Positions 1 to 585 of a DNA stretch of 10,617 nt are shown here, piece after piece. Positions within the stretch are counted from its first letter, which is position 1, and every line of letters starts with the position of its first letter. Under the pieces are notes generated by a model that saw nothing but the letters and a program-made list of their open reading frames with translations, did no database searches and was not told the DNA's origin. Made by a program: the position numbers and the translations under genes. This DNA is from Promethearchaeia archaeon (lineage in GTDB: Archaea; Asgardarchaeota; Lokiarchaeia; Sigyniarchaeales; SOKP01). Location of the stretch: the NCBI GenBank assembly GCA_046497275.1, contig JAWOFX010000168.1, positions 1 to 10,617 of the forward strand, given 5' to 3'.

Positions 1-585
1 CCTGGGAGCGCACCTAACTTCCAAGGGTGGGGCTGTACGCCCATTAAAAGGGAACGTGAGCTGGGTTTAGACCGTCGTGAGACAGGTCGGATTCTATCTA
101 CCAGGTGTGTTGGAGGACTGAGGGTAACGGAAAATCAGTACGAGAGGAACATTTTGCGGGCGCCTCTGGTGTACCGGTTGTCTGATAAGGCATTGCCGGG
201 CAGCTACGCGCTAACGGATAAGTGCTGAAAGCATCTAAGCACGAAGCCGGCCCCGAAAAGAGTCATCCATTCTCGATTTCAAATAAGCCAAGGAGCATTG
301 ACGGGCATTTTGTCTGACGGGTTGATAAGATATACCTGTGAAATCAGATATCAACCGAGACACGGATGCCGACCATCTTAGATGGTATGTGTCAATGTGT
401 CCGTCATAGATAAAATGCAAAGCTGTAAATGCTGTCTGGCAAGAACGGGGCGTGGTGACACGCACCGTAGAAGCGAGACGAGTGCACCCGTAGAAGACGG
501 GGTAGGTGAGACGGGGGTGTACGCGGGGAGCCTTCGGGCGACTCGTTTAGCCTGCCGTTCTCAATAGCACGAGTGTATGGTGTTC
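1..585 (+). rRNA. rrl: 23S (LSU) rRNA, 3' portion (end of domain V and domain VI), archaeal type; partial, begins before the window
   Basis: Conserved LSU motifs: GAGCTGGGTTTAGACCGTCGTGAGACAGGTCGG (peptidyl-transferase region, archaeal variant), sarcin-ricin loop AGTACGAGAGGAAC, GATAAGTGCTGAAAGCATCTAAGCACGAA, and the H99-H101 segment CCCGTAGAAGACGGG...GTGTACGCG...AATAGCAC. The 3' end is approximate (about 575-590). Confidence 0.98.
271..478 (+). other. Large rRNA expansion segment ES39 (helix 98 region) within the 23S rRNA
   Basis: About 208 nt lie between the 3' strand of H94 (261-268, pairing with 113-120) and H99 (from about 480), where E. coli has about 20 nt. The segment is closed by TCTCG 271-275 / CGAGA 474-478 and contains several internal helices. 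Confidence 0.88.

What the first reader, a model, noticed from the sequence alone, without database searches (positions are those of the whole stretch)
271..478. Supersized (~210 nt), multi-branched ES39 expansion segment in an archaeal 23S rRNA
Seen: about 208 nt replace helix 98. Helices that can be paired by eye are 271-275/474-478 (closing), 295-298/415-418, 299-308/397-406 (10 bp with G-U pairs), 312-315/358-361, 320-327/349-356 (perfect 8 bp), hairpin 372-377/381-386, and hairpin 445-454/459-468 capped by a GUGA (GNRA) tetraloop. Established: eukaryote-like ES39 expansions are described in Lokiarchaeota and Heimdallarchaeota. From memory, the reported lengths reach roughly 200 nt. Inference: this example is at or near the top of that range and may add sub-helices. 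It also supports the Asgard assignment of the window.
Basis: partly seen in the sequence, partly recalled or inferred. Interest (0 to 1): 0.6.

Follow-up and report, generated by a model that had tools for sequence, protein, structure and literature searches.

The report
Ordinary large ES39 of a Lokiarchaeon
The 208-base insert is a genuine, well-folded ES39 expansion segment in the large-subunit rRNA of a Loki-type Asgard archaeon, but it has the already published five-helix layout and a middling size for its family, so it is a normal member of a known kind.

Summary
Window 1-584 is the 3' end of an archaeal 23S rRNA. Exactly 208 nt (270-477) sit at the helix-98 site, where the Rfam archaeal model has nothing. 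The segment folds far better than shuffles (z -5.7).

Four helices are kept, with many compensatory changes, in 53 related ES39 sequences: H98, distal Ha, Ha1 and Hb. The other three (295-298/415-418, 299-308/397-406, 312-315/358-361) pair no better than slid controls and are replaced by 305-319/402-418.

The topology H98[Ha[Ha1][Ha2]][Hb] is the one published for Lokiarchaeota B5 (PMC7594248). No sub-helix is added.

Size: about 211 nt by the published boundaries, just above the published 95-200 nt. Among 68 distinct Asgard ES39s measured here (45-299 nt), 13 are longer.

No BHB motif, intron family or ORF was found. Two independent assemblies carry the same segment, one of them in the same gene neighbourhood.

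The Asgard (Promethearchaeota) assignment is supported. Retention in mature rRNA is inferred from relatives, not shown here.

The scan has noted ES39 segments before in at least 16 other genomes.

The parts
1..584 (+). 3' end of the archaeal 23S rRNA (Rfam model positions 2615-2987), cut by the contig start
   Evidence: RF02540, 314.8 bits, E 1.3e-96.
270..477 (+). ES39 expansion segment: 208 nt inserted at the helix-98 site (about 211 nt by the boundaries of Penev et al. 2020)
   Evidence: One search shows the insert between model 2882 and 2883. Calibration: strain MK-D1 measures 92 nt with my boundaries against the published 95 nt.
271..280 (+). H98, 5' strand; pairs with 470-478 (5 bp + bulge/mismatch + 3-4 bp)
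   Evidence: MFE. The basal 5 bp are 95.8% paired in 53 relatives, and 3 of the 5 pairs change on both sides.
287..319 (+). Ha, 5' strand; pairs with 402-440. The distal part 305-319/402-418 is the conserved core.
   Evidence: the distal part is 90.9% paired, with 12 of 15 pairs changed on both sides. The proximal part (287-304/423-440) is only 54% paired on that alignment and remains unresolved.
320..356 (+). Ha1 hairpin (320-327/349-356 and 329-331/343-345); apical loop holds the invariant CUGUG (336-340), with GUGA at 338-341
   Evidence: 80.9% and 93.7% paired. CTGTG is invariant in 53 of 53. U323-A353 becomes C-G in MAG BC3.
359..401 (+). Ha2 hairpin (359-369/389-401 and 372-377/381-386): the lineage-specific, length-variable arm
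   Evidence: MFE. Searches show mostly gaps in relatives at this arm; forms of 165-168 nt mostly fold without this arm.
402..440 (+). Ha, 3' strand
445..468 (+). Hb hairpin capped by the GUGA tetraloop (455-458), with a conserved non-Watson-Crick G449/A464
   Evidence: 90.1% paired, 7 of 9 pairs changed on both sides; the G/A position is never a standard pair in 53 of 53.
470..478 (+). H98, 3' strand
565..746 (+). 3' strand of the long pre-23S processing stem; pairs with the 5' flank of the same gene on contig C34
   Evidence: duplexfold gives -113.1 kcal/mol with L108 1381-1604 (minus strand).

Best explanation
The segment is ES39, the expansion of helix 98, in the large-subunit rRNA of an uncultured Loki-type Asgard archaeon (NCBI Promethearchaeota). 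It belongs to a different family of the same order as the two cultured strains.

Shown:
- It folds as H98 opening into a three-way junction with a long helix Ha and a short GNRA-capped hairpin Hb.
- Ha splits at its tip into Ha1 and Ha2.
- H98, distal Ha, Ha1 and Hb are held by selection on base pairing.
- Ha2 is the arm that changes length between species.

Inferred:
- The segment stays in the mature 50S as a solvent-exposed RNA scaffold next to H1, H94 and H99.
- The invariant loop motifs (GGUGAC cap of Hb, CUGUG loop of Ha1) make tertiary or protein contacts.
- Ha2 drifts with little constraint.

What it does for translation is unknown. In eukaryotes ES39 touches uL13 and eL14 extensions and contributes a contact for NatA.
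For: - Position.
- Stability: (z -5.73).
- Covariation, 19 relatives: RNAalifold finds 29 of 37 consensus pairs with compensatory change.
- Covariation, 53 relatives: the MFE model is 76.4% paired against 40-42% for slid controls, with 0 of 500 shuffles reaching any measure.
- Closest relative: MAG BC3 differs at 16 positions. Eight are unpaired. Five of the eight paired ones keep the pair, including one U-A to C-G double change.
- Published model: the same five-helix layout and the GNRA cap on Hb are reported for Lokiarchaeota B5, with SHAPE and covariation, and ES39-containing transcripts were found in situ (PMC7594248).
- Mature ribosomes: density assigned to ES39 is seen on ribosomes of 'Ca. 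Lokiarchaeum ossiferum' by cryo-ET (PMC9834061).
- Not an assembly artefact: BC3 has a 207-nt ES39 that is 92.8% identical and shares the downstream genes. JGI contig Ga0102944_1001447 has the ES39 at 99.5%. The 5' flank on contig C34 pairs with the window's 3' flank over about 180 nt.
Against: - No RNA data for this organism were available, so retention in the mature rRNA is not shown here.
- The cryo-ET evidence comes from a species whose ES39 is only 118 nt by my boundaries and belongs to another family.
- In Thermococcales a conserved, encoded H98 hairpin is nevertheless cut out of the mature 23S (PMC7758197). Conservation of structure alone therefore does not prove retention.
- The proximal part of Ha and Ha2 are not confirmed by covariation (54% and 43-59% paired). 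This may be a limit of the MAFFT alignment.
Confidence: 0.85

Rival explanations
1. The segment is transcribed but cut out during maturation, like H98 of Thermococcales or the 23S-4.5S spacer of chloroplasts. That would leave a fragmented or circularly permuted 23S rRNA.
For: - H98 excision at exactly this site is documented in Pyrococcus and Thermococcus (PMC7758197).
- The pre-23S here has a very long processing stem, as expected for circular intermediates.
- The P. furiosus H98 probe sequence in that paper implies a GCGA-capped hairpin, which resembles the Asgard Hb caps (GGCGAC in L026 and L030).
Against: - Lokiarchaeal transcripts contain ES39.
- L. ossiferum ribosomes show ES39 density.
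- Loop motifs far from the base are invariant: CUGUG and the cap positions GG..AC in 53 of 53, read as GGUGAC in 52 of 53. Helices far from the base covary. Both are hard to explain for a discarded spacer.
- No cleavage motif could be identified.
Confidence: 0.08
2. The segment is an intron: a tRNA-type bulge-helix-bulge intron, or a group I/II intron that is spliced out.
For: - Earlier notes of this scan report many BHB mini-introns in protein genes of this same genome, so the splicing machinery is busy in this lineage.
- Archaeal 23S rRNA introns exist in Crenarchaeota (background knowledge).
Against: - A BHB scan found no motif whose bulges bracket the insert. BHB-like hits in 1-620 number 76, against 71.7 in shuffles.
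- The only relaxed hit (bulges at 264 and 479) needs a mismatch and uses core nucleotides that pair elsewhere in the rRNA model.
- Rfam finds no intron family even at E up to 10.
- There is no ORF above 76 aa.
- The insert is present at this site in every Asgard genome measured, with graded sizes from 45 to 299 nt. Introns are usually sporadic.
Confidence: 0.02
3. The segment is an assembly or binning artefact at the contig start.
For: - The 23S is split in this MAG: contig C34 ends in it and the window starts in it, with about 1.3 kb missing.
- ES39 lies only 270 nt from the contig end.
Against: - An independent MAG has the same rRNA end, ES39 and downstream genes.
- An independent JGI metagenome contig carries the ES39 at 99.5% identity.
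- The flanks on the two contigs of this MAG are complementary.
Confidence: 0.01

Closest known systems
ES39 of Lokiarchaeota archaeon 1244-F3-H4-B5 (Penev et al. 2020, PMC7594248)
   Same: - Same site.
- Same five helices: H98, Ha, Ha1, Ha2 and Hb.
- Two three-way junctions.
- GNRA cap on Hb.
- Few long unpaired stretches.
- Similar size: 191 nt there, about 211 nt here by the same boundaries.
   Different: The sequences could not be compared, because B5 was not among the records I could fetch. Within the family, ES39 identity is only about 60-68% outside the closest pair. The extra length here lies in Ha2 and Ha.
ES39 of MAG 'Promethearchaeota archaeon BC3' (SHMW01000001.1; loci L002 and L041)
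   Same: 207 nt against 208 nt, 92.8% identical, same fold and same downstream genes.
   Different: Sixteen differences, mostly in loops or pair-preserving. It is an uncharacterised MAG, so this is not a match to a studied example.
ES39 of the cultured Loki-type strains (MK-D1 and 'Ca. Lokiarchaeum ossiferum')
   Same: Same site, the same H98 base and the same GGUGAC-capped Hb. ES39 density is seen on L. ossiferum ribosomes.
   Different: They are much shorter, 92 and 118 nt by my boundaries. Their MFE shapes lack the Ha1/Ha2 split. They belong to a different family of the same order.
Eukaryotic ES39 (yeast 138 nt, human 231 nt)
   Same: Same insertion site, a three-way junction of H98, Ha and Hb, and a GNRA cap on Hb (PMC7594248).
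   Different: The eukaryotic signature fold has three unpaired segments of about 15 nt that bind uL13 and eL14 extensions. Here the longest unpaired stretch in the MFE is the 11-nt Ha1 loop.
Excised H98 of Thermococcales (Birkedal et al. 2020, PMC7758197)
   Same: Same site, and a GNRA-like capped hairpin.
   Different: That one is 41 nt, unbranched, and shown to be absent from mature ribosomes. No such data exist for Asgard archaea, and the available Asgard data point the other way.

Membership tests
Asgard-type ES39 (Penev et al. 2020) | Insert lies at the helix-98 site of the LSU rRNA, between the closing of the H94-H97 domain and H99 | tested here: met
   the insert sits between model positions 2882 and 2883 of RF02540.
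Asgard-type ES39 (Penev et al. 2020) | Three-way junction joining H98, Ha and Hb | tested here: met
   MFE, shape, and covariation of H98, distal Ha and Hb.
Asgard-type ES39 (Penev et al. 2020) | GNRA tetraloop capping Hb | tested here: met
   GUGA at 455-458. GGUGAC is present in 52 of the 53 long relatives.
Asgard-type ES39 (Penev et al. 2020) | Supersized form: Ha splits into Ha1 and Ha2 | tested here: met
   MFE shape [[]]. Ha1 is supported by covariation. Ha2 is supported only by the fold and by pair-preserving changes relative to BC3.
Asgard-type ES39 (Penev et al. 2020) | Host is an Asgard archaeon | tested here: met
   The nearest named records are Promethearchaeota MAGs. Taxonomy lookup.
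Asgard-type ES39 (Penev et al. 2020) | Present in the mature rRNA and ribosome | not testable with these tools
   No RNA reads were available for this organism. Support comes from relatives only.
Archaeal BHB (tRNA-type) intron | Bulge-helix-bulge motif (3-nt bulge, 4-bp helix, 3-nt bulge) at the two borders | tested here: not met
   no strict motif brackets 255-300 and 440-490. Hit counts equal those of shuffles.
Group I / group II intron | Match to the intron covariance models, or an intron-encoded ORF | tested here: not met
   One search finds no intron family at E up to 10. One search finds no ORF above 76 aa.
Excised H98 / internal transcribed spacer (Thermococcales type) | Free RNA ends at the base of H98 and loss of the segment from mature rRNA | not testable with these tools
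   This needs RNA-end mapping. The literature covers Thermococcales only.

The most novel reading that the evidence does not exclude
The window's ES39 is a mid-series member of an uncultured Loki-type family in which ES39 has kept growing at one arm, Ha2. Sizes run from about 165 nt (no Ha2) to 299 nt. Eleven species exceed the 231 nt quoted for human ES39, and the longest forms are built from GAAGCG-like hexamer repeats. If so, expansion-segment growth by accretion and slippage, thought typical of eukaryotes, is active in a prokaryotic lineage, and the published upper limit of 200 nt is well short of the real one.
Probability: 0.6. Interest if true: 0.35.

Novelty: new member of a known kind. 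Interest (0 to 1): 0.17.

Why it matters
ES39 is one of two rRNA expansions that make Loki-type ribosomes look part-way eukaryotic, so each well-supported example helps trace how ribosomes grew. This one adds no new principle. It confirms the published fold in another genus and corrects the pairing proposed by eye.

The comparison it prompted has some wider value. It shows that the 95-200 nt range from 2020 is outdated, that one arm (Ha2) carries nearly all the size variation, and that two loop motifs are invariant across a fast-evolving segment. Those motifs point to specific contacts worth looking for in a future Asgard ribosome structure.

Tried and rejected
- A search of the window's own genome with the Rfam family RF02540 returned no match, although the DNA search did.
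- My first collection pattern (Hb cap plus GTAGAAGAC) matched only 4 of 30 loci and was loosened before the genome scan.
- The metagenome scan with a 20-mer across the 5' junction gave 7 contigs, but only one (L111) is truly related; the other six are chance 20-mer matches. None could be identified as RNA-derived, so the retention question stayed open.
- No supplementary files of Penev et al. are held, so I could not take the B5 sequence or the per-species ES39 table.
- BHB scans of the ES39 borders and of the processing stem found nothing convincing.
- Rfam on L080 confirmed only the 3' flank, because that contig ends 42 nt upstream of its ES39. The 299-nt figure therefore rests on a short 5' anchor.
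- I did not build a covariance model. The MAFFT alignments already separated the rival pairings, but they leave proximal Ha and Ha2 unresolved.

Full report
**What is there**

Rfam's archaeal LSU model (RF02540) aligns window 1-584 to model positions 2615-2987 at 314.8 bits. The only large unaligned stretch is 270-477, which is 208 nt between model positions 2882 and 2883. That is the helix-98 / ES39 site. The contig starts inside the gene.

The first 1,317 model positions of the same 23S lie on another contig of the MAG, C34:1-1399 on the minus strand. About 1.3 kb between the two pieces is unassembled.

**Is the fold more than chance?**

Window 262-486 folds at -84.2 kcal/mol. Dinucleotide shuffles give -59.1 +/- 4.4, so z is -5.73 and none of 200 shuffles folds as well. 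In window coordinates the MFE is:

| Element | Pairing |
|---|---|
| H98 | 271-275/474-478 and 277-280/470-473 |
| Ha | 287-319/402-440, with small internal loops |
| Ha1 | 320-327/349-356 and 329-331/343-345 |
| Ha2 | 359-369/389-401 and 372-377/381-386 |
| Hb | 445-448/465-468 and 450-454/459-463, capped by GUGA 455-458 |

**Comparative test**

A DNA search of 60 related genomes found the same rRNA end in 36 of them. A pattern joining the Hb cap to H99 then found 77 stretches in the species-representative genome collection. Every named record was Asgard. The rest were labelled 'uncultured archaeon', plus one 'uncultured Thermococci' MAG.

On 19 family relatives, RNAalifold recovers H98, distal Ha, Ha1 and Hb. 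Twenty-nine of 37 pairs show compensatory change.

I then counted pairs for two explicit models on 53 distinct long ES39s:

|---|---|---|
| Cells paired overall | 76.4% | 67.9% |
| Slid controls | 40-42% | 34-47% |
| Shuffles reaching any measure | 0 of 500 | 0 of 500 |

Per helix, the shared helices are strongly kept: basal H98 95.8%, Ha1 80.9% and 93.7%, Hb 90.1%. The competing 305-319/402-418 scores 90.9%, with 12 of 15 pairs changed on both sides. The same picture holds on 19 sequences.

Proximal Ha (54%) and Ha2 (43-59%, few sequences) are not settled by these MAFFT alignments.

Against the closest relative, MAG BC3, there are 16 differences. Eight are unpaired. Five of the eight paired ones keep the pair, including U323-A353 becoming C-G.

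**Topology**

The window's MFE shape is [[]], meaning H98[Ha[Ha1][Ha2]][Hb]. This is the commonest shape among the 53 long relatives, at 25 of 53. It is also exactly the layout published for Lokiarchaeota B5 from mfold, covariation and SHAPE: H98 and Hb join Ha in one three-way junction, and Ha1 and Ha2 split Ha in a second. No sub-helix is added.

Forms of 165-168 nt mostly fold without Ha2. Several forms of 237-272 nt gain a further branch.

**Size**

I used one pair of anchors, window 215-269 and 478-540. With them the insert measures 92 nt in strain MK-D1, against 95 nt in Penev et al.. The window's 208 nt is therefore about 211 nt by their boundaries. That is just above their Lokiarchaeota range of 95-200 nt and above B5's 191 nt.

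Among 68 distinct Asgard ES39s measured the same way, the range is 45-299 nt and the median is 175.5. Thirteen are longer than the window's: 299, 272, 250, 250, 244, 243, 238, 237, 233, 232, 232, 223 and 220 nt. Within the window's own genus the values are 178, 199, 207, 208 and 232 nt. The 299-nt case lies at a contig end with only 42 nt of 5' anchor. The 272-nt case has full flanks.

**Rivals**

- *Intron.* A BHB scan finds no motif bracketing the insert, and overall hit counts equal those of shuffles, 76 against 71.7. Rfam finds no intron family even at E up to 10. The longest ORF is 76 aa. Earlier notes of this scan report many BHB mini-introns in protein genes of this genome, which is why I tested this explicitly.
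- *Artefact.* BC3 has a 207-nt ES39 at 92.8% identity and shares the downstream genes at 70-76% nucleotide identity. JGI contig Ga0102944_1001447 has the ES39 at 99.5%. The 5' flank of the 23S on C34 pairs with window 565-746 at -113 kcal/mol, which ties the two contigs to one operon.
- *Excision without splicing.* This is the only rival with real standing. Thermococcales encode H98 and then remove it. Against it stand Lokiarchaeal transcripts that contain ES39, ES39 density on L. ossiferum ribosomes, and invariant loop motifs far from the base. The cryo-ET species, however, has a short ES39 (118 nt) and belongs to another family. I found no RNA-derived sequence for this lineage.

**How it most likely works**

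Shown: it is a stable, branched RNA domain with four helices under selection for pairing and one free-running arm.

Inferred: it remains on the mature 50S as a surface scaffold beside H1, H94 and H99. The Hb cap (GGUGAC, with a never-Watson-Crick G/A next to it) and the invariant CUGUG of the Ha1 loop are contact points for rRNA or protein. Ha2 grows and shrinks with little cost.

In eukaryotes ES39 binds extensions of uL13 and eL14 and contributes a contact to NatA (PMC11346433). Whether any of this applies in Asgard archaea is unknown.

**Verdict**

The feature is real, correctly named, and correctly placed in Asgard archaea. It is an ordinary member of a published class. It is not record-sized, it has no extra helices, and three of the seven proposed helices are wrong. 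The scan has already noted ES39 segments in at least 16 other genomes.

Noticed in passing
L080:2208-2270 (also L033, L098, L103, L067 ES39 regions): The longest ES39s in related MAGs (299, 272, 250, 244 and 238 nt) owe their extra length to purine-rich GAAGCG-like hexamer repeats in arm Ha2. TRF on L080 gives period 6 and 10.5 copies. Eleven distinct relatives exceed the 231 nt quoted for human ES39. The window itself has no tandem repeat.
   Followed up: partly
G000 contig C34 (L108:1-1399, minus strand), near L108 600-680: The 5' 1,317 model positions of the same 23S lie on another contig. An 80-nt insert replaces a 3-nt loop near model position 745, the ES9 site. This MAG therefore has both enlarged ES9 and enlarged ES39. 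About 1.3 kb of the gene is unassembled.
   Followed up: partly
window 565-746 with L108:1381-1604 (minus): The 5' and 3' flanks of the 23S form a very long processing stem (duplexfold -113 kcal/mol). My simple scans found no canonical bulge-helix-bulge motif in it, which is unusual for an archaeal pre-23S and was not resolved.
   Followed up: partly
window 336-340 and 449/464: CUGUG in the Ha1 apical loop is invariant in 53 of 53 long ES39s, although the segment is only about 40% identical overall. Hb keeps a G/A opposition that is never a standard pair in 53 of 53, and most relatives have a 2x2 GG/AA loop there.
   Followed up: partly
L092:7582-7660 (minus): A MAG labelled 'uncultured Thermococci archaeon' carries a 45-nt H98 with the same GGUGAC-capped hairpin and junction as Asgard Hb. 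Either it is mislabelled, or the minimal H98 of other archaea is homologous to H98 plus Hb.
   Followed up: no
window 585-10617: No 5S rRNA follows the 23S. The downstream genes look ordinary: a geranylgeranyl-reductase-like flavoprotein, an HhH protein, an HD-domain protein, a thioesterase, a metallophosphoesterase, a class IV aminotransferase and an HPS-like/RraA-like fusion. There is also one tRNA at 8909-8979.
   Followed up: partly
L051, L055, L070 (record titles): Contigs carrying Loki-type long ES39s (167 and 181 nt) sit in MAGs labelled Odinarchaeota and Hermodarchaeota at NCBI. One of them (L070) has the same ES39 as the locus from G007, which the genome search groups in the window's own family. 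This points to label or binning discrepancies.
   Followed up: no
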